A stretch of 64,000 nt of DNA, taken from the NCBI GenBank assembly GCA_944392785.1, contig CALXXW010000004.1, positions 247-64,246 of the forward strand, given 5' to 3'. The stretch's first letter is position 1; each line of letters begins with the position of its first letter. Below are positions 4,131-53,522 of the stretch, piece by piece. A program made the position numbers and the translations under genes. A model generated the notes under the pieces. The model was given only the letters and a program-made list of their open reading frames with translations, was not told the DNA's origin and did not search any database. Origin of the DNA: an uncultured Alphaproteobacteria bacterium (GTDB lineage: Bacteria; Pseudomonadota; Alphaproteobacteria; CAAHEQ01; UBA3637).

Positions 4131-4138
4131 GAGAAAGT

Positions 4139-4489
4139 ATGTCCAGATTAGTAGAATTAGAAAAATTAGCTGAATTAAAGAAAAAGAAAATCTTGTCCCA
4201 AGAGGAATTTGAACAACAAAAAAAAGCTCTGTTAGCCGAAAATCTGAGAGAAGTAGAGAAACCGGCGGCTAAAAGTCGATTGGCTTATTTGCTGTTGGCT
4301 TGGTTTTTGGGCGTTTTGGGTATCCATAATTTTTATATCGGACGGAATGGTGTCGGACTGGCTCAACTGCTGATTACCTTATTGACGGGGATATTTATTC
4401 TTCCCTTAATTGTGGTGGGTATATGGGTTTTGATTGAGATGGTCACGATTACTCGAGATGCCTCTGGACAGCCGATGAGTTGGCCATAA
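4139..4489 (+). CDS. SHOCT-like plus TM2-domain membrane protein (short paralog)
   Basis: 116 aa with the same architecture as the preceding gene (ELEKLAELKKKKILSQEEFEQQKKALL, then LAWFLGVLGIHNFYIG). RBS AGGAGAAAG upstream. Confidence 0.45.
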   Translation: MSRLVELEKLAELKKKKILSQEEFEQQKKALLAENLREVEKPAAKSRLAYLLLAWFLGVLGIHNFYIGRNGVGLAQLLITLLTGIFILPLIVVGIWVLIEMVTITRDASGQPMSWP

Positions 4490-24545: not shown

Positions 24546-24581
24546 TAAAAAAACACCCTCCGGCCGAAGGGTGTTTTTTTT
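24546..24581. terminator. Bidirectional rho-independent terminator between eno (+) and the TrbC-like gene (-)
   Basis: AAAAAAA-CACCCTCCGGCCGAAGGGTG-TTTTTTTT. It is flanked by an A-run on one side and a T-run on the other. Confidence 0.75.
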
Positions 24582-24590
24582 GTGAAGAGC

Positions 24591-24932
24591 TTACTCCAAT
24601 GTATCAGCAAAATTAGAGCCGGTAAAATCAGAGACAGAGCCGCTGGTATTCGTTGTGGCATAGTCCACAATGGCACCGGCGATAGCCACGATTGCCAAAC
24701 CGACACCCAAAGCGGCTAACCATTTCCAGTTGATTTTTCCGAAAATGGCTGCTGCGCCAAGACCTACCAAACCGAAGCCGCCCAATACAAAGATAACGGC
24801 ACGAGCGTTTTTAAACGTATCCGTCATTTTCGAAATCACGGTTCCAAAGGCGTCTTGAGCATTGGCACCTGTTGCCGTGAAAACCAAGGCAACCAAGCCG
24901 AACAGAGCCAAGTATTTTAGATATTTTGTCAT
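24591..24932 (-). CDS. TrbC/VirB2-family type IV secretion pilin-like protein (orphan)
   Basis: 113 aa. A Sec signal peptide (cleavage after ANA) is followed by two hydrophobic helices separated by a short basic loop (GKINWKW) and a short Ser/Thr-rich C-terminal tail. This is the classic VirB2/TrbC topology and size. Confidence 0.55.
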   Translation of the reverse strand: MTKYLKYLALFGLVALVFTATGANAQDAFGTVISKMTDTFKNARAVIFVLGGFGLVGLGAAAIFGKINWKWLAALGVGLAIVAIAGAIVDYATTNTSGSVSDFTGSNFADTLE

Positions 24933-25129
24933 GTTAATTCTCCTTATATAAGTTTAATTAATGGGGGACAGAATTCTATCCCTTAAGTTTATAATACACC
25001 TTTTTTCCGGCTTGTCTAGATTTTTTTAGGAAAAAGCATAAAAAAACTGTTTTTTGTTAGTAAAAAATTAAAGAATTGTCATTTATGATGTGAATAGCTT
25101 ATTGTATCTTTCGCGAAAAGGAATATAAA

Positions 25130-26107
25130 ATGGTTCAAAAAAATGTCTTGATACATGCTTCTTTCCTGTGTTTAGTGGTGTTGTTAAGCGCTCATGTTCG
25201 AGCCGATGGGGATCCCGTCGAATTTGTGGGTGAGGCGCAGGAATTGCAGCCAGATGAGCAGCTTGAAACCGCCGAAGATGCGATTGCAACGGTGACGGCG
25301 GACGGAGAGTTTTTATTGCCTTCTTACATTGTTCCGACAGAGCCGCTAAAAAACACCGCTTCGGAAAAGACTGCACCGCGTATCACGACAGAAAAACGCT
25401 CAACCGTTCCCGTCGGGCGCACCATTAAGACAACAACCGTGCGGACCGAATATGTGCCGGCAGATGCCGAGGTTCTGGCTAAGTTAGGCATTCCGCCGCC
25501 GAGTACTCCTGTGTTGTTAGATATGGGAAAGTCTGTTCCTATGGCTCAGGGAGGGGCATCATCGGCTCCGTCTTTAAACGGACAAAGACCGATGGAAAGG
25601 CCGAAAGCTAAAAAACCTTTGCTGATTCCGATTGCCGCTGAGGCCGAGATTGTTCAGGAAGAGGATATGCCTTTGCCGGTTTCCAATCGTCCTGCACTTA
25701 ATTCGGCCTATGCCGATCGTATCTTAGAAGATTTTACGCAAAACGGCACAAGTACGTTGATGCCTCACGAGATGAAAGTGACATTTTATCCCGGAGAGGC
25801 CTCTTTTTCAGGACACTCATTGAAGTGGATTCGTGCGTTTTCCAATGCCGCTATGTATGATCCTCGCTTGGTTCTCGAAATACGGATGAGTCGAAATGAG
25901 ATGCCGTTGCAGTATAAGCGGTTGGCTATTTTGCAAAATGCTTTGACGGGCGCGGGGCTTTCAACGCATCAGATGCAGGTGAGCTTTGTTAATCGTCCGA
26001 CGGATACGCTGTTGCTTCGCAATATTAAGCGGCCGGAGCCGACAGAGGTTATTCAGAAAAATACGCAAAAAAAAGTGAAAAAACAAACAAAAGCGGTGAA
26101 ATGGTAA
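25130..26107 (+). CDS. Secreted acidic protein of unknown function; first gene of the secretin/ATPase cluster
   Basis: Signal peptide MVQKNVLIHASFLCLVVLLSAHVRA, then an acidic low-complexity region and a C-terminal ~110-aa globular region. No confident family assignment. Confidence 0.4.
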   Translation: MVQKNVLIHASFLCLVVLLSAHVRADGDPVEFVGEAQELQPDEQLETAEDAIATVTADGEFLLPSYIVPTEPLKNTASEKTAPRITTEKRSTVPVGRTIKTTTVRTEYVPADAEVLAKLGIPPPSTPVLLDMGKSVPMAQGGASSAPSLNGQRPMERPKAKKPLLIPIAAEAEIVQEEDMPLPVSNRPALNSAYADRILEDFTQNGTSTLMPHEMKVTFYPGEASFSGHSLKWIRAFSNAAMYDPRLVLEIRMSRNEMPLQYKRLAILQNALTGAGLSTHQMQVSFVNRPTDTLLLRNIKRPEPTEVIQKNTQKKVKKQTKAVKW

Positions 26108-26175
26108 AAGAAAAACAATTTGTGCTTGTATAATTCCAAAAAATAACGTATGGTGAAGCAAGAAGGAGTATGAAC

Positions 26176-27180
26176 ATGATGCAAAACAAATTAATAAAGG
26201 CTGTTCTTCCGGGCATTTTTGTGGCGTCGTTCTGTGTGGTGGGTTGCACGCGTATGCAGACGGATGAAGTGTATTATGATGAAGCTTATTATGAAGATGA
26301 AACAGCTCCTGTTCAACTGGAAGAAAATGACTATTCTTGCGGAGCGGATGATGATTGCTTGCTAACCAATGATGATGGTTTGTTTCTGACGGAAGAATTT
26401 ACAGAAACTTATGTCGTTTCGCAACCCGGTACGTTGATGGTTGATACCTCTGCTCCGGTGAACATACCGACGACCATGCGTCCCGCGGAAAAAGCTATTG
26501 TGACGAACGGTGAGATATCTGCTTCACGACCGGCCGCCATGAAAGCAACGGCCGTGAAAGATAAGGTTGTATCACAATCAGAAACGGTATCAGAGAAGCC
26601 TTCCTCTCAGGGGAGTGTGACGACGGTGGCTTCTGTCCCTCTCGTTGAGGAGACGACGACAACGGAAGTTATTGAAAAAGAAGCGCCACCCGCACCGATT
26701 CCTCTGGTCAAAAAAATAACAACGACGAAGGTTGTTGAGTCGGATGTTGTTGCAAAATCCGAACCGGCTCGAAAAGTGGTGACGACGGTTTCTGAAAAGA
26801 AGACAACATCGCGTATCGATGCTAAAACAGGTGAGAAAATTGAAGTGAAAAAGGAGGAGAGCTCCATTACGGCCGAAGGAACAACTTTAGCGTCTCGTGT
26901 GGCTTATGGGGAAGAAGTCCATGAATGGGAAGCTATTCCGGGAACAACGTTGAGGGCTCTTTTGCTGGAGTGGGGTGAAAAATCCGGATGGACCGTGATT
27001 TGGAAAATGGATCGCGATTACTTGTTAGAGGCCGGAGTTGTCTTTCGAGGAACGTTTATGGAGGTTGCGGGTGCTTTGGTTCGCTCTTTTGCTCGTGCCG
27101 TACCGGCTCCGATCGGAACGTTCTATCAAGGAAACCGTGTCTTGGTTATCAATACGCAGGAGGATGAGAATGCGCACTAA
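26176..27180 (+). CDS. Lipoprotein with a C-terminal TcpQ/PilL-like domain (type IVb pilus secretin-associated lipoprotein-like)
   Basis: Lipobox FCVVGC after a signal peptide (start at 26176, 7 nt after AGAAGGAG). Thr/Val-rich linker. The C-terminal EWEAIPGTTLRALLLEWGEKSGWTVIWKMDRDYLLEAGVVFRGTFMEVAGALVRSF matches the conserved block of the TcpQ/PilL domain as recalled. The size matches R64 PilL. Confidence 0.5.
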   Translation: MMQNKLIKAVLPGIFVASFCVVGCTRMQTDEVYYDEAYYEDETAPVQLEENDYSCGADDDCLLTNDDGLFLTEEFTETYVVSQPGTLMVDTSAPVNIPTTMRPAEKAIVTNGEISASRPAAMKATAVKDKVVSQSETVSEKPSSQGSVTTVASVPLVEETTTTEVIEKEAPPAPIPLVKKITTTKVVESDVVAKSEPARKVVTTVSEKKTTSRIDAKTGEKIEVKKEESSITAEGTTLASRVAYGEEVHEWEAIPGTTLRALLLEWGEKSGWTVIWKMDRDYLLEAGVVFRGTFMEVAGALVRSFARAVPAPIGTFYQGNRVLVINTQEDENAH

Positions 27181-28816
27181 TATAGCTCGAATTATTTTGT
27201 TATCCGGTGTTTTGTGCGGTTTTGTGTCGTTAACGGCGTGTAATAAGTATGTGGATAAAACAAATAAAAAAATAGAAACAATTTATGAACAGGCTGAAAC
27301 ATATCGTGATGTGGCGCGAATTCCTGATTTACCCGAGCCGGTGGATACTGTTCGGATTCAAAATGATATTTGGTTGGGAACCAGCAGTTCTAAGATTACG
27401 GAGGGAGACCCATTACCGGCAGCGTTGGAAAAAGACGATGGTGTGACGATTTCTTTAGCCGGTGAGGTCACTTTACCGATTTTGGCTCAAGAAATCATGG
27501 ATGTGACACATATCGTCGTGCGTTTGGATGATTTAAAGTCCGAAAACGAAATTCCTGAAAATACCTTACCGGTGAATTATTCCGGAAAGCTGAGTGGTTT
27601 GTTAAATTATATTGCGAATAGATATGGTGTGTGGTGGAAGTATCAAGGGGGTATTATTACCTTTTTTACCAAAGAAACACGTGTCTTCACAATTTATGCG
27701 CTGCCTACGGAAACAAGCCTTTCGGCTACGTTGACCGGTGCCTCTATGGGAGAAAACTCTGGGGGGGGGAGCGCCTCATCATCCTTGAACACATCGGCTA
27801 ATCTGTCTTTGTGGGATAATATTGAGGAAGGAATTAAACAGATCGTCGGTGAGAATGATAAAGTATCGTTTAGTCGTGTCGCCGGAACAGTGACGGTGAC
27901 GGCTAGTCCCTTTGTCATCCGGAAAGTCGGACAATATGTGGCTAACTGGAATGAAAAACTATCGCGACAGGTCGCTATTTCTGTGAAAGTTCTACAGGTC
28001 TCTTTAACGAACGAAGATAGCTATGGTCTTGATTTGCGGCTGGCGTTTAATTCGAATAAGTTAGGTTCTTCCTTTTCAAGTCCCTATTTCATTGATGCAG
28101 CCGGTGGCGGTGCAACAGGTAGCGTTGGTTTGTTGTCTATGGCTCTGTTAGATCCCGGGTCCCGTTGGAAGGATTCACAATCAATCATTCAGGCCTTGTC
28201 AACTCAAGGAAAGACTTCTCTCGTGACCAGTACAAGCGTGACAACTTTGAATAATAAAGTGGCTCCTGTTCAGATTTCAACGGCCCAGAATTATGTGAAG
28301 GAAACCAATGTGACAACGTCCGGTTCCGGAACAGATCGTAGTACGGAAGTCGATATGGATACGGACACGTTAAATTACGGATTCACGATGGAAATTTTAC
28401 CTCGCATTTTAGATCACGGTCGTTTGATTGTTATGTTCTCATTGACATTGACGGATCTGTTGTCTCTGGATCAATTTTCATCGAATGATGGTCTGCAAAC
28501 ATCTGAAGATTCTTCCGACGAAGAAGATACCGAAGAAGAAACCGGAGATCGAGAGTCCACGATTGTTCAGTTGCCTAAGATGCAAATGCGCGGCTTTATT
28601 CAGGAAATTGCCATGCGTTCGGGCTCAACATTGGTCTTGACCGGTTTTGAAAGTGCCAATGATACGACGGATACGGCCGGTATCGGTAAGGCAAAAATGG
28701 GTATTTTGGGCGGTAAAGCCTACAGTTCAAACACGCGGGATGTTATGGTGATTTTGATGACGCCTGAGGTATTACAGTCACCGCTGTCACCCGAAGCCAG
28801 AATGAGGAATTTTTAA
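27170..28816 (+). CDS. Secretin-family outer-membrane channel, lipoprotein type (BfpB/TcpC/PilN-like)
   Basis: Start ATG 27170 overlaps the upstream stop. Lipobox LTAC. N-terminal secretin domain, then a C-terminal secretin core (SLVTSTSVTTLNNKVAPVQIS..., LNYGFTMEILPRILDHGRLIVMFSL, STIVQLPKMQMRGFIQEIAMRSGSTLVLTGF, RDVMVILMTPEVLQ). Confidence 0.75.
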   Translation: MRTNIARIILLSGVLCGFVSLTACNKYVDKTNKKIETIYEQAETYRDVARIPDLPEPVDTVRIQNDIWLGTSSSKITEGDPLPAALEKDDGVTISLAGEVTLPILAQEIMDVTHIVVRLDDLKSENEIPENTLPVNYSGKLSGLLNYIANRYGVWWKYQGGIITFFTKETRVFTIYALPTETSLSATLTGASMGENSGGGSASSSLNTSANLSLWDNIEEGIKQIVGENDKVSFSRVAGTVTVTASPFVIRKVGQYVANWNEKLSRQVAISVKVLQVSLTNEDSYGLDLRLAFNSNKLGSSFSSPYFIDAAGGGATGSVGLLSMALLDPGSRWKDSQSIIQALSTQGKTSLVTSTSVTTLNNKVAPVQISTAQNYVKETNVTTSGSGTDRSTEVDMDTDTLNYGFTMEILPRILDHGRLIVMFSLTLTDLLSLDQFSSNDGLQTSEDSSDEEDTEEETGDRESTIVQLPKMQMRGFIQEIAMRSGSTLVLTGFESANDTTDTAGIGKAKMGILGGKAYSSNTRDVMVILMTPEVLQSPLSPEARMRNF

Positions 28817-28836
28817 AAAGGGAGTATAAAAACAGG

Positions 28837-30165
28837 ATGGTGGATCAACAAAATCCGACGCAGACACGTCCGCAGACGCATGCGGAAATGGTTGCTCAAG
28901 CCAGCCAGTCAGGAACAGTTGTTATTGACGGGATGCGCTATGCTGTCGGTTTAATGTGGTTGCCACTTCAGAATCTGGATGATCCGATTCCCGAGATTCG
29001 TGAAACGATGGATAGTGAACCCGGTGCAGACTACTACTGTTTGCGCACGGGGGCAGCGCCGCAGTATGGTATTGCTAAAAGTTCGATGGGGCATATGGAA
29101 AATGAACCCTCATTGGCGGCGGCTGTTGCTTCAGCTTTGTCCGATAAAACTTCGGTTTGTGCCGTTTTTAAGGTAGATGAAGGATATTGGTTTGTCGCCA
29201 TTCGAAATGACTTAATCCTATCTGAAGAGGACATCCTTTTCCATACGGAAGAAGAAGCAAAACGTGCCTTTTTTTCCATGATGGCCGTGCCGGATTGGGG
29301 CATAAAAATTGTTCCGGCTTCATGGCATATTGAAGGAACAGAAGAGCGGGATTTGGCCGCGTTGATAAAAAATAGCCGTAAAGTTCGTTTGGTCGAATTA
29401 AGCACGGCGAAAAAAACGCAAATTTTGCTTTTCGTTTCTCTGGTTATTTTGGCTCTGTTGGGCGGTGCGGTCTATTTAATCTATTCGTTGATCAAGGTTG
29501 CGTGGACACCCGAAACTATACCGGTTATGCCGACCCCGGAAGTTGTTAAACCTGTTGAGCCGGTTATTCCCAAAGCAAAGCCGTGGGAAAAGGTGGTTCA
29601 AGTGGATGCTTTGTTGAGTCGTTGTTGGAATAATACATATCAATTAACATCGGTCTTTATTCCTTGGTGGAAAATGGGGACGGTTGTCTGTACTCCATCG
29701 GGTATCCAAACGACATGGACTCGTACGGGGGATCCGGGTAAGCGATTGGCATGGTTAAAATATGCCATCAAAGATTATCAATTTAACCGATTGGAAATCA
29801 AGCCGATTTCAACAACGCAAGCCGAAGGAAAATTACCGTTTGCCGATATGCCGATGATTTCAACGGCTCCGACCCTGACCGTTGAGCAGTTGCAGGAAGA
29901 GTTGCATGAAATTACGGATGCGACAGGAATGCCTATTGCTTTTTCGGAGCAAACGGTTTTGGATCCGCCTAATAATGCAGATGGATCGGCGCCTCCGAAT
30001 CAACAAGTATATCACTTTTTTTCCTTTACCATTAATTCGGAATATACGCCATGGGAATGGAAGACGTTTTTTGATAAATTTACGGGATTGGAATTGTTAA
30101 AGCTGGAATATGCACCGGGTAATCAAAATAAGTGGAAGTATGAGGGGAGAATCTATGCCAAATAA
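28837..30165 (+). CDS. Bitopic inner-membrane assembly protein (cytoplasmic N-domain, one TM, periplasmic C-domain); BfpC/PilO-like by architecture
   Basis: 442 aa with a single TM helix near the middle (ILLFVSLVILALLGGAVYLIYSL). Its position and size correspond to pilO of R64 or bfpC. No sequence-level family call is possible by eye. Confidence 0.4.
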   Translation: MVDQQNPTQTRPQTHAEMVAQASQSGTVVIDGMRYAVGLMWLPLQNLDDPIPEIRETMDSEPGADYYCLRTGAAPQYGIAKSSMGHMENEPSLAAAVASALSDKTSVCAVFKVDEGYWFVAIRNDLILSEEDILFHTEEEAKRAFFSMMAVPDWGIKIVPASWHIEGTEERDLAALIKNSRKVRLVELSTAKKTQILLFVSLVILALLGGAVYLIYSLIKVAWTPETIPVMPTPEVVKPVEPVIPKAKPWEKVVQVDALLSRCWNNTYQLTSVFIPWWKMGTVVCTPSGIQTTWTRTGDPGKRLAWLKYAIKDYQFNRLEIKPISTTQAEGKLPFADMPMISTAPTLTVEQLQEELHEITDATGMPIAFSEQTVLDPPNNADGSAPPNQQVYHFFSFTINSEYTPWEWKTFFDKFTGLELLKLEYAPGNQNKWKYEGRIYAK

Positions 30166-31057
30166 AACATTGACTTTTGTGATGAGCCTAGTAATAGGTA
30201 GTTTATTTCTGAGCGCAGGTGTGAAAGCTCAAACGGCAGAACCCGCACCCAGCTCGGAGTCTGTGGATGTTCAGGCAGCTGAAGCGGCGGCTAAAGAGGC
30301 GTTGAATAATGAATTGGCGACACCGACACTCACCGATAAAACAGCGGTTGATTTTCCTAATCGTCAGAATTTAGGAACTCAGGAATTGGCCGTTTTACCG
30401 GGTATTAATGAAACCGATATGACCGGTCCATCTCCGATGGCTATTTCGGTCTCAAAAAAAGATTTGCCCAGTGAACAATTGATTGGGAAAATTACACCGG
30501 AAGTGTTTCAAGAAATGGCCGATATTGAACGAGCCAGTACATTTTTGCGCTTGCAAAAACAAAAAGAGGAATTGAAAAATGATCTCGAACGTACCAGAGC
30601 CATGTATCGTCAGTCGCGTCTGGAAGAAATCGCTAAACGCGAAGAAGTGGTTAAAGAGCGTATTAAATGGTGGCAAGAACAAGAAGAACTTCGAGAAGAG
30701 TTACGTCAGAAAAAGGCCGAAACAGAAAATATAGAACAACGGATTGAGGAAGAAAAAGCCCTTCGTGAAGAGCTACGAAAAAAGGCTTTGCAACGTCGTG
30801 AAACGGCCGAGACCAAGGGGACAACGGAGGAAGTGACGGAAGAAGTCGGATTTGTCCCAACAACATATGTTTTAATGGGGGTTCGCGGGATGAGTGATAC
30901 GTTGATGGCGCAATTGCAGGATGCTGATACACAGGCCGTCATTACCGTTAAGAAAAATGATGTTTTACCCTCAGGGTATGTCGTTTCTGAAATTACGAAA
31001 GACTATGTGATTATCTCTTACGGAGATTTACAAACGCGCGTTGGATTTAATCAGTAA
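30155..31057 (+). CDS. Periplasmic or membrane-anchored coiled-coil protein of the cluster
   Basis: Start at the Met behind the strong RBS GAGGGGAG. Signal/anchor KTLTFVMSLVIGSLFLSAGVKA. There is a long charged coiled coil (EELKNDLERTRAMYRQSRLEEIAKREEVVKERIKWWQEQEELREELRQKKAETENIEQRIEEEKALREELRKK). Confidence 0.4.
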   Translation: MPNKTLTFVMSLVIGSLFLSAGVKAQTAEPAPSSESVDVQAAEAAAKEALNNELATPTLTDKTAVDFPNRQNLGTQELAVLPGINETDMTGPSPMAISVSKKDLPSEQLIGKITPEVFQEMADIERASTFLRLQKQKEELKNDLERTRAMYRQSRLEEIAKREEVVKERIKWWQEQEELREELRQKKAETENIEQRIEEEKALREELRKKALQRRETAETKGTTEEVTEEVGFVPTTYVLMGVRGMSDTLMAQLQDADTQAVITVKKNDVLPSGYVVSEITKDYVIISYGDLQTRVGFNQ

Positions 31058-31091
31058 AGAGGGGGGATAGGTTTGTTATCCTTGGGAGCTT

Positions 31092-33401
31092 ATGTTGTGG
31101 GATGATGAAGAGGCAAAAAAGGCTGCCGCCAGTTTATCAGGCGAGGTATCAAAAAAGCCCGATAAAAAATCGGATGCGATAGAGGCATCGGATATTCCGA
31201 CAGCCGAACGCTTGCCGCAAGAGATGCCTTCGTTTTTAAAAGCATCGGAAACATCTTCTCAAGAGCCGCTTTCTTCTTTTGTCCCACCACCTCAAATTCC
31301 GCATGTATCAGAACATATCGCAGAAACGAATCATAAGGAAAACGAGCCTTTGACCGAGCCGTCATCTTCTGCATTGCAGATATCAGATATAGCCCAACAA
31401 AAGCCAGAGAGCTCTCAACCGATTGGGCCTATGCCGAGGGTAGCTGAACCGAATAAAGAACAGGATCAGCCCTTGTCTTCTGTGGCTGAATCCCCTGAGG
31501 TGATACCAGCCGATCCGGGCGAAGACGTGCCGGCCGTGGTGGCGCCGTCGGATGCTTCCCTTAAGCCCGAACAGAAAGATACTGCTATTTCTTTGTCGGA
31601 TCAGGCCAGATTGGGAACGACACAAGCTCCGATGAATCCCTCATCAGATAAGTCGATTTTGGCTGACAAAGAGACATTGCTTGATGCGATAAAAGCGGAA
31701 AAAACAAAGGAAGAGAGTGAGTCATCGTCCAATGGAAAGATGTCTTTTGGACACCCGGCTGATGATATTATTGTCTCGGATGTGCAAGCAGCTGCCGCGG
31801 CTGAACAGACAAAGACAGATTATACTTCAAATACTTTTTTAAAAGAGCTATTCGCAGATGGGAATGAATGTGTGACGGCTATTAACGGTTCGTTCCCTAT
31901 CAAGGAAGATACCCGTTCTTTATTGGCGTTATTTTCCAATGGCCGTTTTTTTGTCTCCGAATCGGCTAAATTTGACGGTAAGGTGTTAGGTTTTCAATAC
32001 CAGGCAAAAAAACGCCGCTTACAAATCGGGAAGCCGGAGTATGTTCCGACAATTATTTTAAATGACATCTATGAGTATGCTCTTCAGGTAAAGGCGGCTA
32101 GTACCAAAGTTGATATATCGGATGCACAGGAACAGGCTCGGATGCAGCGTGATTTTGTGACAATTGTCACACGTGCTGCGGCTAATCATGTGTCAGATAT
32201 CCATATCGTTGTCGCCGACCACTCAACAGTTATGTTTCGCATTAACGGATTGATGCAAACGGAAATGGAATATACTAAAGAGTGGGGTGAAAGTTTCGTG
32301 CGCGCGGCTTTTGCCTCATCAGATATTTCTGATTCGAACTATGCTCAGAATGAATACCAGGCGGCTCAAAAACTTGGTCGGACACCGCTCAGAGGCTCTA
32401 ACGGACGTCTGTTATTGCCCAGGAACGTGTTGGGTATCCGATTGCAATTTAACCCTATTGCTTTTGGAACACGCTATGTCGTTATGCGTCTTCTGTATGC
32501 GGAAGACGATGCCACTTCAGCCAGTGATTTAGAAGTCCTAGGATTTACAAAAAGAGAAACGGGACTGTTTTATCAATTACGTTCGGAACCAACCGGTATT
32601 GTGATTGTTTCGGGGCCAACGGGATCTGGAAAGTCAACGACTTTGCAGCGTAATATGATTGCCATGTTGCAAGAGCATAATTATGAAATTAACTTGATTA
32701 CGGTGGAAGATCCGCCGGAATATCCTATTCCCGGAGCGCGTCAAATGCCGGTGACTAATGCTACGTTGGAGGAGGAAAAAGATAGAGAGTTCAATAAAGC
32801 CTTGGCGGCAGCTTTACGGTCGGATCCCGATTCATTGATGATCGGTGAAATTCGAACCTTATCTGCAGCTGACTTGGCTTTTCGGGGAGCATTGTCGGGA
32901 CATAATGTTTGGACAACCTTGCATGCCAATAGTGCGGCGGCGGTGATTATGCGTCTGAAAGATATGGGGGTTGAGGATTTTAAATTGCAGGATCCCAGTA
33001 TTATGAGAGGGATGTTAGCACAACGTTTGTTTCGAAAACTTTGTCCGCATTGTCGGATTAAAGCGGCTACGAATCCGACTCATCCCGCCGTGCAGCGATT
33101 GGAGCGAGCTTTGGGGGATGTCGCATTGGATTTGGCGTATTTGCGAGGCCCGGGCTGTAAAGAATGTGATTTTCGAGGAGTCAGCGGTCGTACCGTGGTT
33201 TCTGAATTTATTCTGCCGGATGCCACCTTTTTGGATTTGATGGTTAAGGGAGAAGTCAATAAGGCCATGAGCTATTGGTTAAATGATTTGAATGGTCAAA
33301 CATTACGTGAGGCGGCTATTTCTCGTATGTTGAACGGGATTATTGATATTGAAGAGGTTGAACACTGGACCGGTTTCTTGGATCAACAGCTTTTGATATA
33401 A
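31092..33401 (+). CDS. GspE/PilB-family secretion ATPase (type II / type IV pilus assembly ATPase) with ~330-aa disordered N-terminal extension
   Basis: Walker A VSGPTGSGKSTT. Asp box and Walker B motifs. His box TTLHAN. A C-terminal tetracysteine zinc motif CPHCR...CKEC. The N-terminal third is Ser/Pro/Glu/Ala-rich low complexity. Confidence 0.8.
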   Translation: MLWDDEEAKKAAASLSGEVSKKPDKKSDAIEASDIPTAERLPQEMPSFLKASETSSQEPLSSFVPPPQIPHVSEHIAETNHKENEPLTEPSSSALQISDIAQQKPESSQPIGPMPRVAEPNKEQDQPLSSVAESPEVIPADPGEDVPAVVAPSDASLKPEQKDTAISLSDQARLGTTQAPMNPSSDKSILADKETLLDAIKAEKTKEESESSSNGKMSFGHPADDIIVSDVQAAAAAEQTKTDYTSNTFLKELFADGNECVTAINGSFPIKEDTRSLLALFSNGRFFVSESAKFDGKVLGFQYQAKKRRLQIGKPEYVPTIILNDIYEYALQVKAASTKVDISDAQEQARMQRDFVTIVTRAAANHVSDIHIVVADHSTVMFRINGLMQTEMEYTKEWGESFVRAAFASSDISDSNYAQNEYQAAQKLGRTPLRGSNGRLLLPRNVLGIRLQFNPIAFGTRYVVMRLLYAEDDATSASDLEVLGFTKRETGLFYQLRSEPTGIVIVSGPTGSGKSTTLQRNMIAMLQEHNYEINLITVEDPPEYPIPGARQMPVTNATLEEEKDREFNKALAAALRSDPDSLMIGEIRTLSAADLAFRGALSGHNVWTTLHANSAAAVIMRLKDMGVEDFKLQDPSIMRGMLAQRLFRKLCPHCRIKAATNPTHPAVQRLERALGDVALDLAYLRGPGCKECDFRGVSGRTVVSEFILPDATFLDLMVKGEVNKAMSYWLNDLNGQTLREAAISRMLNGIIDIEEVEHWTGFLDQQLLI

Positions 33402-33425
33402 AGGTATTGGAAAAAGGAGTACAGC

Positions 33426-34571
33426 ATGGATAGTATCCCGCAGACAAAAATTCCTCAAAAACGTAAAAGCAGTATCGGAGAAAGTGCCGGTCAGATCGGT
33501 TCACGCTTGAATTATTGGTATGCCAGATTGATGGTCCGGTCGATCACTTCTGATAGATTGGCGGTTTATCGTAAACTATCCGCATTATTGCGCAATCGAT
33601 TTTCATTGATGGATGCCTTGGATCGTCTGCATCAAATTGCTTCAAAAGATGGGAAAAATCCGGATGATACTATGGCTATTGCTATTCATGAATGGGTTAA
33701 GTCGATTCAAAACGGTGAATCTTTCTCGGTAGCGTTAAGAGGGTGGGCGCCGCCAACAGAGCTTTTAATGCTTTCGGTCGGTGATATTGCGAATTTAGAG
33801 TTGGCCTTGGATAATACCGTTAACGTCGTTGAGGGAATGAATAAAATGAAAGGACCCGTTGTAAATGCCATTGCCTATCCCTCTTTCTTGATTTGTATGG
33901 TTTTATTTTTAATTTACGGCGTTGGTCGTTGGATGGTTCCTCCGATGGTTGATGCTGTTCCCGGTATGGTTTGGACGGGATTGGCAAAGTCTTTGGTTGA
34001 CTTGTCGTATTTTGTGGCGGATTATACGATTTTATTCTTTGCGGCACTGCCGGTCCTTTTTTTGATTGTTCTCTTTTCGTTTCCCCGCTGGCGAGGAAGA
34101 TCAAGGACTATGGTTGAAAATGTTCCGCCATGGTCTATTTACCGGATTTTTATTGGTGTCGGTTGGTTGTTATCTTTGGCCGCTTTGGTGAAGGCGGGAA
34201 CACCGGTTTCTAAGGCTATGCGCTCTTTGCGAGCCGATGCTTCGCCGTATTTGCTGTATCGAATCGACAGAACGCTTATTTACATCAATAACGGTGACAA
34301 CTTGGGTGATGCTTTATATCGAACCGGACTTAAATTTCCGGATGAGGAAGTCGTGGGCGATTTGCGAATTTACGCGGAGTTGGATAACTTTCAAGATGCT
34401 TTGGAAAGTTTGGCTCAGGATTGGCTCAAGAACTCGATTCGTGATATTGAGCAAAAGGCGGCTATCTTAAACGGGGTTGCCATTCTGTTGATTGCGGCTG
34501 TGGTGGCTTGGGTTGTTATGGGAACGTTTGCCATGCAAGAACAAATGGTCTCTGGGATGGGTGTCGCGTAA
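33426..34571 (+). CDS. GspF/PilC-family inner-membrane platform protein
   Basis: 381 aa with two repeats of a cytoplasmic helical domain followed by TM helices. It sits immediately downstream of the ATPase. RBS AAGGAG. Confidence 0.65.
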   Translation: MDSIPQTKIPQKRKSSIGESAGQIGSRLNYWYARLMVRSITSDRLAVYRKLSALLRNRFSLMDALDRLHQIASKDGKNPDDTMAIAIHEWVKSIQNGESFSVALRGWAPPTELLMLSVGDIANLELALDNTVNVVEGMNKMKGPVVNAIAYPSFLICMVLFLIYGVGRWMVPPMVDAVPGMVWTGLAKSLVDLSYFVADYTILFFAALPVLFLIVLFSFPRWRGRSRTMVENVPPWSIYRIFIGVGWLLSLAALVKAGTPVSKAMRSLRADASPYLLYRIDRTLIYINNGDNLGDALYRTGLKFPDEEVVGDLRIYAELDNFQDALESLAQDWLKNSIRDIEQKAAILNGVAILLIAAVVAWVVMGTFAMQEQMVSGMGVA

Positions 34572-38927: not shown

Positions 38928-40328
38928 TTATCGAGTTCTTTTTTTCTGTTTCGTATCCGCCATAGGTAATAGAACCATGGCGCGCAATCCCCCCATGGGA
39001 CTATCCTCTAAATGAATATCCCCCCCATGAGATAAAATGATGTCACGTGTAATGGTCAGGCCTAATCCAACACCGCCGGTTGCTGGATTCCGAGAGGGAT
39101 CCAATCGAAAAAAAGCTTTAAAGACATCGCGACGTTTGTCTTTTGGAATACCAGGGCCATCATCATCGATAATAATTTGAGCCATGGCTCCGCGAATGCC
39201 GAGGGAGATATACGTATGCTGAGCATAGCGTCCGGCATTTGTGATTAAGTTGTTGAGGGCTCGACTTAAATCTGTGTTGCGAGCTAATAGAAAAATATCT
39301 TGTTCGGCATGAATATCAATAAATTGTCCGCCTTTTTTCAGTTTATCCACGATTCCGCAGACCAAATTGACCAATGAAATTTGTTGAGGCTTTTCTTGCC
39401 CTTCACCACGAGCAAAAGCCAAATATCCTCCCAACATTTGCTCCATTTCGGTAATATCCGCCAGCAAATCGGTGACATTTTCATTTGGCTCCATCATCGA
39501 CAGCTGCAGCTTCATGCGCGTTAAGGGCGTTCGCAAGTCATGTGAAACGCCGGCCAGCATGGCCGTCCTCTCGGTTAAATAGCGTTGGATACGATTTTTC
39601 ATCTGGAGAAAAGAAAGCCCGGCTTGTTTGACTTCTGTTGCTCCTTCCGGTTTAAAGGGCTCATCCTTCCCCAGCCCGAACAGCTCAGAGGCACGTGACA
39701 ATCGTTCTATAGAGCGCACTTGATTCTTCATAAATAAAAACGCAATCAAGAAAAATAACATGGAAAAGCCAACCAGCCATACCATAAAAACATAAACGGT
39801 TGAGCTGAAAAAACGCTTCCGAGGAACTCGGACACTCAGAACGCCTTTGTTCAACTGGATATTGATTTGTTGTTGTCTATCGTTTGCGTCCAACATCTGT
39901 GTTGGGTAGGGCAGTTCTTTAAGTGCCTGAAACAGAGGTGTTGTCACTTGGTTTAAATCGGTTGTTTTGTGCGGTATAAGAGTTGCTTTGCTCTGAAAGG
40001 TTATATCCAAATTTAAGTTTTTCTCCAGAAGCTTTAAAAAGGTTGTAATGCGTTCGGGGTCTGCCGTCGTTTCATCCAGCAGTGTGGCAATAGACGAGAC
40101 CTCTCCCACAACATCGGCAGCCAAACGACGACTAATGGTATCCCAATGGCGATTGAAAAAAAAGTTAAAGGCGACAGCTTGTAGCAATACAAGAGGTAAA
40201 AGAATAATCAACACAAAACGGTATAGTAAACTTTTGGGCATAATAGCATGCTTGATGGTACGTATCAGATCATACCCGAAAACCGATAGTGTTTTGATAA
40301 CATTTTTCAAAGAAAGTTTATGTGTCAT
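38928..40328 (-). CDS. Sensor histidine kinase (EnvZ/ChvG-like), two TM segments
   Basis: H-box VSHDLRTPLTRMKLQ. N/G-box HATPase motifs (ITNAGRYAQ, DDDGPGIP, GGVGLGLTI). The start is set at the Met overlapping the response-regulator stop (ATGA overlap); the track ORF extends further upstream. Confidence 0.75.
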   Translation of the reverse strand: MTHKLSLKNVIKTLSVFGYDLIRTIKHAIMPKSLLYRFVLIILLPLVLLQAVAFNFFFNRHWDTISRRLAADVVGEVSSIATLLDETTADPERITTFLKLLEKNLNLDITFQSKATLIPHKTTDLNQVTTPLFQALKELPYPTQMLDANDRQQQINIQLNKGVLSVRVPRKRFFSSTVYVFMVWLVGFSMLFFLIAFLFMKNQVRSIERLSRASELFGLGKDEPFKPEGATEVKQAGLSFLQMKNRIQRYLTERTAMLAGVSHDLRTPLTRMKLQLSMMEPNENVTDLLADITEMEQMLGGYLAFARGEGQEKPQQISLVNLVCGIVDKLKKGGQFIDIHAEQDIFLLARNTDLSRALNNLITNAGRYAQHTYISLGIRGAMAQIIIDDDGPGIPKDKRRDVFKAFFRLDPSRNPATGGVGLGLTITRDIILSHGGDIHLEDSPMGGLRAMVLLPMADTKQKKRTR

Positions 40329-40999
40329 TTGGTAATCAAGGTATATCCTTGTCCTCGAACAGTTTGAATACAAAGCGGTATTTTAATATCATCTTCGATT
40401 TTTTTGCGTAGACGTGTGATCTGCACATCAACGGTGCGCAAGTTATCGGTATCAATCAAGTGTCCCAATTCTTCCCGAGAAACGATCTCTCGCGGTCTGC
40501 TGACAAAAATTTTTAACAGGGCTTGTTCCGCGGTCGTTAGTGATATGGGCTGCCCGTCTTTCAAGAGAATCCCGGCTTTTGTCTGATATATACACGAGCC
40601 AAAATAGATATCTGTCTCCTCTTGTTCAGATGCTTGTCGCTTCAACAGATTTTTCAATCGTAAAATAAGCTCCCGTGGCTCGAATGGTTTGGATAAATAG
40701 TCATCTGCGCCGGCTTCTAGCCCCGTAATACGATTATCAATATCACCCATGGCGGTTAACATAAAAATCGGAGTCGTGATACCTCGTTCACGTAATTCTT
40801 TTGTGAAATCTTGCCCATTTTTATGCGGCATCATAACATCCATAATAATCACATCAAATTGAAAAAGAGTTAAAAGCTCATCTGCTTCATCAGGCAGAGA
40901 AGCCTCGGCTACTTGAAAACCATTTTCACTGAGGTATTTGTGTAAAAGGTGTCTAAGGCGCGTATCATCATCTACAACGAGGATATGTGCTTGCGTCAT
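40325..40999 (-). CDS. OmpR-family response regulator (ChvI-like)
   Basis: Receiver domain ILVVDDDTRLRHLLHKYL...DVIIMDVMMP. C-terminal winged helix ...TVRGQGYTLI. Confidence 0.8.
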   Translation of the reverse strand: MTQAHILVVDDDTRLRHLLHKYLSENGFQVAEASLPDEADELLTLFQFDVIIMDVMMPHKNGQDFTKELRERGITTPIFMLTAMGDIDNRITGLEAGADDYLSKPFEPRELILRLKNLLKRQASEQEETDIYFGSCIYQTKAGILLKDGQPISLTTAEQALLKIFVSRPREIVSREELGHLIDTDNLRTVDVQITRLRKKIEDDIKIPLCIQTVRGQGYTLITK

Positions 41000-41448
41000 T
41001 ATTCCTCCCGTATTTTTTTTAAAAGAGCTTGACCGGCTTTGCCGCCCTTGCCAACCATCTGTTCTTTTAAAATACGTTGCATCATGCGAGCATATGTTTC
41101 TGCTTTTTTGACCTCTGTATCCGTAAAGGTTTCTTTATGACGTAAAAGATCACACAGGACTTGTCCCACTTCGGTCATCAAGGGGTAATCAAAAGTCGTT
41201 CCTTGTCCCTTGATGTCATGAGATTTTCTAAACACAACTTCGATAAGTAGTTTGGATCGTTCTTTTGGAGAGGCTTTTTTGGCGGTTTGTAGAGCTTCTA
41301 AAATGGCCTCAACTTCGACCATCGTCCATTCGGGGTAGGCTTCTTTTAAATCCGTCAGAACTTTCGTTGCTTGTTGTTCTAAGGCAGATGGTTGAGGGGT
41401 TGAGTTATTTTTTTTGAAAATCTCAGGTAAATCGGTATAATCAGACAT
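40999..41448 (-). CDS. Small hypothetical protein encoded upstream of, and co-oriented with, the two-component genes
   Basis: Start reassigned to MSDYTDLPE behind RBS AAAGGGG. The track start at 41511 is the TTG of a putative -35 box (TTGGCA, 18 nt, TATACT on the minus strand at 41482-41511). Confidence 0.4.
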   Translation of the reverse strand: MSDYTDLPEIFKKNNSTPQPSALEQQATKVLTDLKEAYPEWTMVEVEAILEALQTAKKASPKERSKLLIEVVFRKSHDIKGQGTTFDYPLMTEVGQVLCDLLRHKETFTDTEVKKAETYARMMQRILKEQMVGKGGKAGQALLKKIREE

Positions 41449-41618
41449 CTTGTTTTGCCCCTTTCGTTTTCTGGCAGCATCAGTATAACAGAAAATATCC
41501 CAGCTTGCCAAGTTTTTTATTCTACAAAAAAGTTGTTCTTTGGGACGATATCAAAAACGACTGGAGGATAGAGGAAAAAGAAGGGTGAAAATACATCAGG
41601 ACCAAAATAAAGCCTATT

Positions 41619-43899: not shown

Positions 43900-44330
43900 T
43901 TGTCAACATATTTTTTAACCTCTTTTTAATATTTTTATATCACTGTTGAAATATAATCTTTTTTTTGTGTGAAAGAAGAGATTTTTTTGTTTTGGTTAAA
44001 AAAAGAAAATCAGATTTCCTTTCATTTTTTTGGCAGAAATTAACGAAATATATGAACGAATCAATGATTCTAAATATCAAATTGAAATATAAATATTTTT
44101 TTATTTTTTATGGTAGAGATTCGCTTTGCGATAAAAAAGAACAAAAGAATAACACTCGAATGAATGAAAAATAAAATTGTTTTTTGCTATCAATGATATA
44201 TCATGATATGAAATGGTGTGTTGAACTATATATTGATGTTTAAAAACTAGATATAGGGTCAAGAAGTTTGTGTAAAAAAAAAAGAAAAAAGAGGGTTGCT
44301 TTTTGTTTTTTATTTTTTTATGATAGCCCC
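43900..44330. other. Extremely AT-rich intergenic region upstream of dnaA; candidate replication-origin/DNA-unwinding region
   Basis: ~430 bp of >80% A+T with A/T runs directly 5' of dnaA. No convincing TTATCCACA boxes were found by eye. Confidence 0.25.
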
Positions 44331-44360
44331 ATCAATTCACTTCAGATTAAAGGGTATGAA

Positions 44361-53370: not shown

Positions 53371-53522
53371 CTTTTTTCATCCTTTTCATCCAACGATTTC
53401 GTCATTGTAGCGGAAAGTTTTACAAAAAGCAAATTTTTTCATAGAAGGAGAAACAGAAAAAAGATTGCTTTTTGTCGGACGTTTGTATATAATGAGACGC
53501 AGTATGATTTGTGGGGATAAAA

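What the first reader, a model, noticed from the sequence alone, without database searches (positions are those of the whole stretch)
24591..24932. Orphan TrbC/VirB2-like pilin gene isolated between eno and the secretin cluster
The 113-aa protein has a Sec signal peptide, two TM helices and a basic inter-helix loop: the VirB2/TrbC topology. No other T4SS gene (VirB3-B11/D4) is in the window. Scattered, duplicated VirB2-like genes are a hallmark of the Rickettsiales rvh T4SS (established knowledge), which would fit the Rickettsia-like IleRS. Its divergent pairing with a T4bP-like assembly cluster, sharing the 24933-25129 AT-rich promoter region, is unusual. It raises the question of whether the two are co-regulated or functionally linked.
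Basis: partly seen in the sequence, partly recalled or inferred. Interest (0 to 1): 0.6.

Follow-up and report, generated by a model that had tools for sequence, protein, structure and literature searches.

The report
Detached VirB2 pilin beside pilus cluster
The small gene is a real, selectively maintained VirB2/TrbC-type secretion-system pilin of an uncultured gut alphaproteobacterium. It looks orphaned only because its partner genes virB3-virB4 moved elsewhere in this lineage, while it stayed beside a type IVb pilus assembly cluster that accompanies it in nearly all related genomes.

Summary
The ORF at 24591-24932 (-) is real. It has an AAGGAG ribosome-binding site, a promoter conserved across species, a terminator shared with eno, and only synonymous differences between strains. 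It passes Pfam TrbC/VirB2 (36.6 bits; cutoff 27.9). It is 38% identical to the annotated VirB2 of a complete plasmid T4SS operon in Microvirga. No other T4SS gene lies in the window.

The Rickettsiales reading is not supported. All relatives are gut Alphaproteobacteria MAGs, and the closest annotated T4SSs are alphaproteobacterial plasmid systems.

The pairing with the type IVb pilus (T4bP) cluster is conserved, not accidental:
- 59 of 67 species-level loci found through VirB2 carry the cluster.
- 32 of 35 metagenome loci found through the secretin carry the VirB2 gene.

In more distant relatives the same gene heads a virB2-virB3-virB4 operon divergent from the pilus cluster (34/34). In the window's sub-clade (0/8), virB3-virB4 sit elsewhere, beside ppa.

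Best reading: this is the pilin of a dispersed chromosomal T4SS, probably co-regulated and cooperating with the adjacent T4bP, as in IncI plasmids and PAPI-1. The T4bP has its own PilS-type prepilins in relatives, so a hybrid machine is unlikely but not excluded. I rate it a new variant of a known kind, of moderate interest.

The parts
24591..24932 (-). virB2/trbC-family pilin gene (113 aa prepilin). Residues 1-25 are the signal peptide, 45-65 TM helix 1, 66-70 a basic loop, 71-91 TM helix 2, and 92-113 a variable tail ending in the conserved F-x-D-T-L motif.
   Evidence: ORF. PF04956 above the gathering cutoff. 436 homologues, all PF04956. Family alignment with an invariant core. AF2 topology. 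38% identity to the annotated VirB2 of Microvirga pMVF16-3. Purifying selection.
24858..24932 (-). Region coding for the predicted Sec signal peptide (residues 1-25, cleavage ANA|Q).
   Evidence: Read from the sequence. The Ala at the -1 position and the mature N-terminus region are conserved in the family and in Microvirga VirB2 (ASA|Q). No signal-peptide predictor was available.
24940..24945 (-). Ribosome-binding site AAGGAG, 7 nt upstream of the ATG.
   Evidence: Sequence. Conserved as AAGGAG/GGAG in 11 of the 12 aligned sequences (the window and 10 orthologous loci).
24991..25018 (-). Sigma-70-type promoter of virB2: -35 TAGACA (25018-25013), 16-nt spacer, -10 TATTAT (24996-24991), preceded by an A-tract.
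   Evidence: Consensus scan, 10 of 12 matches. The -35 block AAAAAAGTGCTGGACAAAA and a TATAAT-like -10 are conserved upstream of virB2 across sister species while the flanking sequence diverges.
25054..25074 (.). Conserved 21-nt block (TCTTTAATTTTTTACTAACAA in virB2 sense) between the two divergent promoters. It is a candidate shared regulatory site or UP element.
   Evidence: Found exactly once per locus, at the same position, in the window and in 10 further loci of the sub-clade besides the window's own strain variants, with at most 2 mismatches. Its function is not tested.
25076..25105 (+). Promoter-like site for the pilus-cluster operon (TTGTCA, 18-nt spacer, TATTGT).
   Evidence: Consensus scan only, 9 of 12 matches.
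24546..24582 (.). Bidirectional intrinsic-terminator-like hairpin between convergent eno and virB2.
   Evidence: Sequence. Terminator scan.
25130..26107 (+). First gene of the T4bP-like cluster: a 325-aa secreted protein with no family match.
   Evidence: No Pfam or NCBIfam hit. Its C-terminal part is conserved next to the cluster in relatives.
26170..27180 (+). PilL-like lipoprotein with a C-terminal TcpQ domain.
   Evidence: PF10671, E=2e-16. Lipobox ..VVGC read from the translation.
27170..28816 (+). PilN-family type IVb lipoprotein secretin.
   Evidence: TIGR02520, 281.8 bits, just under its cutoff of 287.65. PF00263 Secretin. The start follows the gene calls.
28837..30165 (+). PilO-type pilus accessory protein.
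   Evidence: PF06864, E=2.6e-22.
30155..31057 (+). 300-aa secreted protein in the PilP position; no family match.
31092..33401 (+). PilQ/GspE-type assembly ATPase (769 aa).
   Evidence: PF00437 T2SSE, E=5.7e-70.
33426..34571 (+). PilR/GspF-type inner-membrane platform protein. The cluster ends here: frr follows, with no prepilin or prepilin peptidase.
   Evidence: PF00482. frr follows at 34710. No class III signal motif anywhere in the window.

Best explanation
The gene encodes the major pilin and channel subunit (VirB2/TrbC family) of a chromosomal, vertically inherited P-type type IV secretion system whose genes are dispersed around the genome.

Shown:
- The protein belongs to the family.
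- The gene is maintained by selection and has a conserved promoter.
- Its positional orthologues in more distant species are the first gene of a virB2-(virB2 paralogues)-virB3-virB4 operon that diverges from the same R64-type T4bP assembly cluster.
- In the window's sub-clade that operon was split. virB3-virB4 now lie beside ppa-HIT-kdsB, and virB2 stayed with the pilus cluster.

Inferred:
- The prepilin is inserted by Sec and cleaved at ANA|Q.
- It is stored in the inner membrane as a two-helix hairpin.
- It is extracted and polymerised by VirB4/VirB3 encoded elsewhere.
- The shared 197-bp divergent promoter region co-regulates it with the T4bP operon.
- The T4bP provides cell-to-cell attachment for the T4SS, as the thin pili of IncI plasmids and of PAPI-1 do for conjugation.
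For: Family membership: PF04956 above cutoff; 38% identity, E=1e-19, to the VirB2 of a complete VirB2-B3-B4...B8-B9-B10-B11-VirD4 operon, including the C-terminal FxDTL motif; hairpin topology.

Functionality: only synonymous strain differences and dN/dS of 0.13-0.32; a phylogenetically footprinted promoter and RBS.

Operon ancestry: in relatives TrbC is followed by a 96-aa VirB3-like gene (PF05101 in 8 of 13 members; 34% identity to an annotated VirB3) and an ~810-aa VirB4 (PF03135 above cutoff; TIGR00929 E=2.6e-112).

Clade pattern: 34 of 34 loci with secretin at or below 60% identity have VirB4 downstream. 0 of 8 in the window's clade do.

virB3-virB4 elsewhere in sister genomes: about 13 kb away on the same contig in BRZ_KG bin33, and on another contig of the same MAG, GCA_949286245.1.

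Linkage to the T4bP cluster: 59 of 67 loci found through TrbC and 32 of 35 found through the secretin. It survives changes of the other flank (eno here, HK/RR in 9 or more loci), an inversion (L059, L077, L092) and insertions.

Precedent for cooperation between a T4bP and a T4SS: PMC5297154, PMC9045228.
Against: - The window genome's own virB3/virB4 were not located.
- VirB7-B11 were never seen in about 1.7 Mb of held loci.
- VirB6-like and VirD4 genes were seen only in subsets, so a complete T4SS is not demonstrated.
- Co-regulation and cooperation with the T4bP rest on synteny and promoter geometry only; there are no expression data.
- Structural comparison with solved VirB2 pilins gave nothing.
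- MAG binning errors could affect the 'same genome' statements.
Confidence: 0.55

Rival explanations
1. It is a genuine T4SS VirB2, but its adjacency to the T4bP cluster is only inherited gene order with no functional or regulatory meaning.
For: All loci come from one alphaproteobacterial lineage, so shared ancestry alone can preserve a 200-bp divergent junction. In 11 loci, 5-8 kb of housekeeping genes separate the two without apparent harm. The closest plasmid T4SS, in Microvirga, has no T4bP cluster nearby.
Against: The adjacency outlasted at least two changes of the other flank, an inversion that kept the two blocks together, and the operon split. In that split virB2 stayed with the pilus cluster rather than with virB3-virB4. 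Where virB2 is displaced, a VirB6-like gene takes the divergent position next to the cluster.
Confidence: 0.25
2. The VirB2-like protein works with the T4bP-like machine itself as part of a hybrid apparatus, either as a fibre or membrane subunit handled by the PilQ/PilR motor or with the PilN secretin as the outer-membrane conduit for a VirB2/3/4 module.
For: The window cluster lacks a prepilin and a prepilin peptidase. Only VirB2/B3/B4 (plus a weak VirB6 and a rare VirD4) were found; the VirB7/9/10 outer-membrane core was never seen. Proteins with a type IV pilin N-terminus recur next to virB genes, for example directly upstream of virB3-virB4 in L095.
Against: Relatives carry one or two PilS/bundlin-type prepilins right after the platform gene (PF08805), so the T4bP has its own subunits. 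VirB2 has a Sec-type signal, not a class III signal. Absence of VirB7-11 was examined only in 20-kb flanks, not whole genomes. No such hybrid is known.
Confidence: 0.07
3. It is a non-functional relic left behind when the T4SS operon broke up.
For: It is separated from virB3-virB4 in the whole sub-clade. No T4SS partner lies in 64 kb.
Against: The reading frame is intact in every genome. Strain variation is synonymous-only, with dN=0 at dS=0.22 in one species pair. The promoter, RBS and terminator are conserved. virB3-virB4 are retained and about 80% conserved in sister genomes.
Confidence: 0.05
4. It is a scattered VirB2 paralogue of a Rickettsiales rvh-type T4SS.
For: The T4SS is split into islets and virB2 is duplicated. 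This resembles the rvh 'archipelago' (PMC2653234).
Against: Record titles place all relatives in gut Alphaproteobacteria MAGs, none in Rickettsiales. The nearest annotated VirB4/VirB2 are plasmid systems of Microvirga, Sphingomonadales and Holosporales. A secretin-based T4bP is present. No rvh hallmark duplications (virB4, B6, B8, B9) were seen. Rickettsiales chromosomes could not be searched directly.
Confidence: 0.05
5. The gene and the pilus cluster are cargo of an integrated conjugative element (ICE or plasmid remnant).
For: Pairing of a T4bP with a T4SS is typical of IncI plasmids and PAPI-1/ICEclc-type islands. The closest VirB2/VirB4 are plasmid-borne.
Against: The flanks are eno, secG, tpiA, gltX, ileS, frr and uppS. 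GC content is the same as in housekeeping genes. No integrase, relaxase or repeats were seen. The position is conserved across dozens of species.
Confidence: 0.03

Closest known systems
TrbC/VirB2 pilins of P-type (MPF-T-like) T4SSs, most closely the VirB2 of Microvirga sp. VF16 plasmid pMVF16-3 (NZ_CP069357.1)
   Same: Pfam PF04956. About 115 aa, with a Sec signal ending A-x-A|Q, two hydrophobic helices, a short basic loop, and a C-terminal FxDTL motif. 38% identity. Orthologues are followed by virB3 and virB4, as in that plasmid.
   Different: Here the gene is chromosomal, not next to virB3-virB4 or virB8-11/virD4, has no relaxase nearby, and is paired divergently with a T4bP cluster. Sequence searches find no solved VirB2 structure and, at database scale, no plasmid match.
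Rickettsiales vir homologue (rvh) T4SS
   Same: Chromosomal and vertically inherited, with T4SS genes split into several islets among housekeeping genes. virB2 is separate from virB3-virB4 (PMC2653234).
   Different: The host lineage differs (gut Alphaproteobacteria MAGs). rvh-type duplications of virB4/B6/B8/B9 were not seen. A T4bP cluster is associated here, which to my own knowledge is not a feature of rvh. Direct sequence comparison with Rvh proteins was not possible.
Conjugative T4bP 'thin pilus' plus T4SS pairs: IncI1 R64 / IncI2 TP114 pil clusters and the PAPI-1 pilL-pilV cluster
   Same: The gene set is the same R64-type: a PilL-like lipoprotein, PilN lipoprotein secretin, PilO, PilQ ATPase, PilR platform, and PilS-type prepilins in relatives. 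It is encoded next to T4SS genes. In those systems the T4bP mediates contact for T4SS transfer (PMC5297154, PMC9045228).
   Different: Here both parts are chromosomal, conserved across species, and without a relaxase or mobile-element features. The T4SS is VirB-like rather than I-type or G-type. The window copy of the cluster lacks pilS, pilU and pilV.
Helicobacter pylori ComB DNA-uptake T4SS (comB2-comB3-comB4 operon)
   Same: A stand-alone three-gene virB2-virB3-virB4 module separated from the rest of the apparatus. This is what is seen in L052 and L106. The ComB comparison rests on my own knowledge.
   Different: No sequence comparison was made and no competence genes were examined. It is a resemblance of operon layout only.

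Membership tests
TrbC/VirB2 pilin family (PF04956) | Match to the family HMM above the curated threshold | tested here: met
   36.6 bits against a gathering cutoff of 27.9, E=5.2e-9, profile positions 10-97 of 98. All 120 listed homologues carry PF04956.
TrbC/VirB2 pilin family (PF04956) | Cleavable Sec signal with a conserved Ala at the cleavage site, then two hydrophobic helices with conserved Gly in the first and a short loop (features as listed in PMC2653234) | tested here: met
   ANA|Q at residues 23-26. Invariant G51 G52 G54 G57 in helix 1. AF2 helices 28-63 and 69-93 with loop 64-68. The signal peptide was judged by inspection only.
TrbC/VirB2 pilin family (PF04956) | Homology to a VirB2 encoded in a complete, annotated T4SS operon | tested here: met
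   38% identity over 92 aa, E=1e-19, to WP_203447090.1. That gene is followed by VirB3, VirB4, VirB8, VirB9, VirB10, VirB11 and VirD4.
TrbC/VirB2 pilin family (PF04956) | Positional orthologues encoded together with virB3-virB4 | tested here: met
   34 of 34 more distant loci have VirB3-like and VirB4 genes downstream of the orthologous gene.
TrbC/VirB2 pilin family (PF04956) | The same genome encodes VirB4 and the rest of a T4SS | not testable with these tools
   The window has none. Sister genomes have virB3-virB4 elsewhere. The window MAG's other contigs could not be searched.
TrbC/VirB2 pilin family (PF04956) | Fold similarity to solved VirB2/TraA pilins | tested here: inconclusive
TrbC/VirB2 pilin family (PF04956) | Processing (cyclisation or C-terminal trimming) and assembly into a pilus | not testable with these tools
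   Needs experiment. The conserved FxDTL motif before a variable tail is only suggestive.
Rickettsiales rvh T4SS | Host belongs to Rickettsiales | tested here: inconclusive
   Record titles say only 'Alphaproteobacteria bacterium', and the sources are largely gut metagenomes (human, ruminant, rabbit) as far as the titles show. No phylogeny was made.
Rickettsiales rvh T4SS | T4SS genes dispersed in several chromosomal islets | tested here: met
   virB2 sits beside the T4bP cluster. virB3-virB4 sit beside ppa. There is a pentapeptide-virD4-rarA islet. Orphan virB2 paralogues exist.
Rickettsiales rvh T4SS | Duplicated virB4, virB6, virB8 and virB9 (PMC2653234) | not tested
Only one VirB4 type was seen per locus.
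R64-type type IVb pilus (neighbouring cluster) | PilN-family lipoprotein secretin | tested here: inconclusive
   TIGR02520 at 281.8 bits against a cutoff of 287.65, E=9.3e-84. PF00263 is met. A lipobox LTAC is present.
R64-type type IVb pilus (neighbouring cluster) | PilO accessory protein, GspE-type ATPase and GspF-type platform | tested here: met
   PF06864, PF00437 and PF00482, all above cutoff.
R64-type type IVb pilus (neighbouring cluster) | PilS-type prepilin and prepilin peptidase | tested here: not met
   Neither was found in the window. PilS/bundlin prepilins follow the platform gene in relatives. No peptidase was seen anywhere.

The most novel reading that the evidence does not exclude
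In this gut alphaproteobacterial lineage, a minimal VirB2-VirB3-VirB4 module and an R64-type T4bP assembly machine form one composite apparatus. The T4SS pilin/ATPase part would use the PilN secretin, rather than a VirB7/9/10 core, to cross the outer membrane. That would explain why the two gene sets stay together and why no VirB7-B11 genes were seen.
Probability: 0.07. Interest if true: 0.85.

Novelty: new variant of a known kind. Interest (0 to 1): 0.5.

Why it matters
The gene itself is an ordinary family member. Its context is new. A widespread, uncultured group of gut Alphaproteobacteria keeps a chromosomal VirB2/B3/B4 module physically tied to a type IVb pilus cluster.

Until now, pairing of a T4bP with a T4SS has been described for mobile conjugative elements (IncI plasmids, PAPI-1). 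A dispersed T4SS 'archipelago' has been regarded as a Rickettsiales peculiarity.

If the two machines cooperate, these commensals may use a domesticated contact-dependent transfer or effector system in the gut. If the VirB core genes are truly absent, it would be a new kind of hybrid envelope machine. It also shows that 'orphan' VirB2 genes should be read against synteny in relatives before being called paralogues or relics.

Tried and rejected
- **Solved-structure sequence search.** The family profile against PDB sequences gave only chance matches.
- **Plasmid search with the pilin.** tblastn of the 113-aa protein against PLSDB found no match at E<=1e-3. The Microvirga VirB2 homologue was reached only through VirB4.
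- **'VirB2 as the missing T4bP subunit'.** A strict class III signal search found nothing. A relaxed search found genuine G|RSMVEML prepilins in relatives, which weakens this idea.
- **Locating the window genome's own VirB4.** I searched with a relative's VirB4, ranked candidates by identity, made three context look-ups and listed cluster members. This yielded sister-genome loci only. The cluster listing gave accession numbers for only one protein.
- **Search for the other T4SS parts in held loci.** Queries were Microvirga VirB8/9/10/11, VirD4 and MobA and paralogues of the ATPases. This produced only one VirD4 islet. Its family has just 14 detectable homologues, so it is not a clade-wide component.
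- **Proteins downstream of virB4 in relatives** (628, 259 and 398 aa). They are secreted and helical with no family match, so calling them VirB5-like is a guess.
- **Literature.** Searches for gut alphaproteobacterial T4SS/T4P (RF32) found nothing relevant.
- **Upstream of virB3.** A motif shared with the virB2 promoter was not found there.

Full report
**The observation.** The 113-aa ORF at 24591-24932 on the minus strand is present as described.
- It has an AAGGAG ribosome-binding site 7 nt before the ATG.
- A hairpin flanked by A- and T-runs separates it from the convergent eno gene.
- The N-terminus (MTKYLKYLALFGLVALVFTATGANA|QD) looks like a Sec signal peptide.
- An AlphaFold model built on a 37-sequence family alignment has mean pLDDT 69. 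It shows the signal helix, then helices 28-63 and 69-93 joined by the basic loop GKINWKW, then a disordered tail.
Pfam TrbC/VirB2 (PF04956) scores 36.6 bits against a gathering cutoff of 27.9, E=5.2e-9, over nearly the whole profile.
- The 197-bp spacer to the next gene is 26% GC against 44% for the window. The gene and the pilus cluster have the same GC content as the housekeeping genes.

**Is it a live gene?** Yes.
- The same protein occurs on 15 contigs from several metagenomes and in MAG GCA_949297705.1.
- Strain variants differ by 4-5 nucleotides, all at third codon positions and synonymous.
- One pair of sister species has dS=0.22 with dN=0. dN/dS against orthologues is 0.13-0.32.
- The promoter-like site found by the consensus scan is TAGACA, 16-nt spacer, TATTAT at 25018-24991. 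It coincides with a block (AAAAAAGTGCTGGACAAAA ... TATAAT) conserved upstream of the gene in essentially all sister species, while the surrounding sequence diverges.
- A further 21-nt block at 25054-25074 sits between the two divergent promoters. It is conserved in the sub-clade.

**What surrounds it.** Downstream on the plus strand (25130-34571) lies an R64-type type IVb pilus (T4bP) assembly cluster:
- an unknown secreted protein;
- a PilL-like lipoprotein with a TcpQ domain;
- a PilN-family lipoprotein secretin (TIGR02520, 281.8 bits, just under its cutoff);
- PilO;
- an unknown secreted protein;
- a GspE-type ATPase;
- a GspF-type platform protein.

The cluster stops there. frr and uppS follow, and there is no prepilin or prepilin peptidase. 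The rest of the window is housekeeping: ileS, gltX, tpiA, secG, eno, dnaA, dnaB, ruvAB, tsf, rpsB and transporters. tblastn with VirB3, VirB4, VirB6-like, VirB8-11 and VirD4 queries finds nothing in the window. So 'no other T4SS gene in the window' is correct.

**Who carries it.**
- The protein has 436 detectable homologues, all carrying PF04956. Where named, they are 'TrbC/VirB2 family protein [Alphaproteobacteria bacterium]'.
- A scan of species-representative genomes found 196 relatives.
- The 80 loci kept are almost all Alphaproteobacteria MAGs, many from human, ruminant and rabbit gut samples.
- A few are titled Lactobacillales or Holdemanella, probably through binning errors.
- None is labelled Rickettsiales.

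**The pairing with the pilus cluster is conserved.**
- Of 67 species-level loci with at least 3 kb upstream, 59 carry the same seven-gene cluster within 10 kb of the TrbC-like gene. In 56 it is divergent, as in the window; in 3 it is on the same strand.
- The adjacency holds even where the secretin is only 35-40% identical.
- The other flank changes: eno here, a histidine kinase/response regulator pair in at least nine loci, and virB genes elsewhere.
- The reverse test started from secretin homologues in an independent metagenome collection. It found a TrbC-like gene in 32 of 35 loci with at least 5 kb upstream. Several of those loci are redundant human-gut strains.

**Why it looks orphaned.** In the more distant relatives, the positional orthologue is the first gene of a T4SS operon:
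- TrbC;
- often one or two further TrbC paralogues, some as domains of 261-1444-aa proteins;
- a 96-aa protein;
- an ~810-aa VirB4.

VirB4 passes PF03135 above its cutoff, and TIGR00929 gives E=2.6e-112. The 96-aa protein is VirB3-like. PF05101 is the top family in 8 of 13 members, though below threshold. It is 34% identical to an annotated VirB3.

The pattern is clean:
- All 34 loci with both flanks and secretin at or below 60% identity to the window's have VirB4 downstream.
- None of the 8 in the window's sub-clade does.

In that sub-clade virB3-virB4 exist elsewhere among housekeeping genes, always followed by ppa-HIT-kdsB:
- about 13 kb from virB2 on the same contig in BRZ_KG bin33;
- on a different contig of the same MAG, GCA_949286245.1;
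- likewise in two further genomes.

No virB2 sits next to those pairs. The simplest history is one rearrangement in the ancestor of the sub-clade that split virB2 from virB3-virB4, with virB2 staying beside the pilus cluster. I could not locate the window genome's own virB4.

**Other pieces.**
- Orphan virB2 paralogues sit alone between housekeeping genes in some genomes.
- A 768-aa polytopic protein gives a sub-threshold TrbL/VirB6 match. It occupies the divergent position next to the pilus cluster in the 11 loci where virB2 is displaced by 7-8 kb.
- A pentapeptide-VirD4-rarA islet exists in a few genomes, but its family is small, with 14 hits.
- No VirB8, VirB9, VirB10 or relaxase was found in about 1.7 Mb of held flanks. 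This says little about whole genomes.

**Closest annotated system.** VirB4 from a sister genome is 39% identical to that of Microvirga sp. VF16 plasmid pMVF16-3. There it lies in a contiguous MobA - VirB2 - VirB3 - VirB4 - ... - VirB8 - VirB9 - VirB10 - VirB11 - VirD4 set. Next come plasmids of Sphingosinicella, Erythrobacter and Ca. Paracaedimonas. The window protein is 38% identical (E=1e-19) to the Microvirga VirB2, including the C-terminal FxDTL motif. This anchors it in a P-type T4SS lineage.

**How it most likely works.** Shown: family membership, selection, a conserved promoter, operon ancestry, and linkage to the pilus cluster. The rest is inferred.
- The prepilin is Sec-inserted and cleaved at ANA|Q.
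- It is kept in the inner membrane as a hairpin.
- It is polymerised by VirB4/VirB3 encoded elsewhere.
- The divergent promoters in the shared 197-bp region allow joint control with the pil operon.
- The T4bP supplies attachment to target cells, as shown for PAPI-1 and the IncI2 plasmid TP114 (PMC5297154, PMC9045228).

**Rivals.**
- *Purely historical adjacency.* This cannot be excluded, because all genomes belong to one lineage.
- *A hybrid machine in which VirB2 is handled by the T4bP motor.* This is attractive because the window cluster lacks a pilin. However, relatives have one or two PilS/bundlin-type prepilins (G|RSMVEML...) right after the platform gene, and VirB2 has the wrong kind of signal peptide.
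- *A dead relic.* Selection and the conserved promoter contradict this.
- *A mobile element.* The flanks, composition and cross-species position contradict this.
- *The Rickettsiales rvh reading.* It captures the dispersed architecture (PMC2653234) but not the host or the nearest relatives.

**Verdict.** 'Orphan' is explained as a lineage-specific operon split. The suspected link with the pilus cluster is strongly supported at the level of conserved synteny but untested functionally. This is a new variant of known kinds: a VirB2 pilin, a dispersed T4SS and a T4bP-T4SS pairing, in a chromosomal, vertically inherited setting in uncultured gut Alphaproteobacteria.

Noticed in passing
window 25130-34571; L059 7810-9190; L077; L092; L052; L072; L081: The window's T4bP-like cluster ends at the platform gene, with no prepilin, minor pilin or prepilin peptidase. 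Relatives carry one or two PilS/bundlin-type prepilins (leader ...G|RSMVEMLGVLAIIGVLS) immediately after it. No prepilin peptidase was seen in any locus.
   Followed up: partly
L059 10494-11279 and 11333-15667; L106 7716-8765; L019 10743-11573: Proteins of 261-1444 aa inside the T4SS operons of relatives contain a VirB2-like two-helix segment (tblastn 36-59% to TrbC; PF04956 sub-threshold). VirB2 domains appear to be fused to long coiled-coil or secreted regions.
   Followed up: partly
L010/L029 5684-7861 and 16501-17619; L013 18771-20189; L037 16428-20156; L040; L043; L050; L095 7942-9234: Large proteins (372-1242 aa) with a type IV pilin N-terminus and no recognisable C-terminal domain are scattered near virB genes. 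In L095 one lies directly upstream of virB3-virB4 on the same strand.
   Followed up: no
L079 3320-5626, and homologues in L054, L067, L069, L073, L075, L082, L085, L088, L091, L094: A 768-aa polytopic membrane protein with a weak TrbL/VirB6 match (E=5e-4, below cutoff) sits divergently next to the T4bP cluster. It occurs exactly in the loci where virB2 is 7-8 kb away, separated by xerD-like, aroK, MATE and ROK genes.
   Followed up: partly
L066 16561-19990; L107 8677-12094: There is a conserved chromosomal islet: pentapeptide-repeat protein, then a VirD4-type coupling protein (PF02534 above cutoff), then rarA. Only 14 homologues were detectable, so it is confined to part of the lineage.
   Followed up: partly
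L053 13643-17516; L063 13227-16943; L059 18567-20177: Three to four secreted, helix-rich proteins with signal peptides follow virB4 in many relatives and match no family. They could be VirB5-like pilus-tip proteins.
   Followed up: no
window 38928-41511; L013 10631-13148 and others: An EnvZ-like histidine kinase, an OmpR-type regulator and a 170-aa protein lie about 4 kb beyond the cluster in the window. In nine or more sister species they lie immediately next to virB2. This regulator is a candidate for the conserved 21-nt block at 25054-25074.
   Followed up: no
L015, L036, L046, L047: Contigs deposited as Lactobacillales, Holdemanella biformis or Lactobacillus MAGs carry the same alphaproteobacterial virB2/virB4/T4bP genes. 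This is probably binning contamination in those assemblies.
   Followed up: no
window 44268-45752 and 53511-54980: dnaA and dnaB both lie in the window, so the replication origin may be nearby. I did not examine this.
   Followed up: no
window 3405-4489: Two tandem small proteins each combine a SHOCT domain with a TM2 domain.
   Followed up: no
To my knowledge that form occurs in many bacterial groups, so it is not evidence for Rickettsiales. I made no phylogeny.
   Followed up: no
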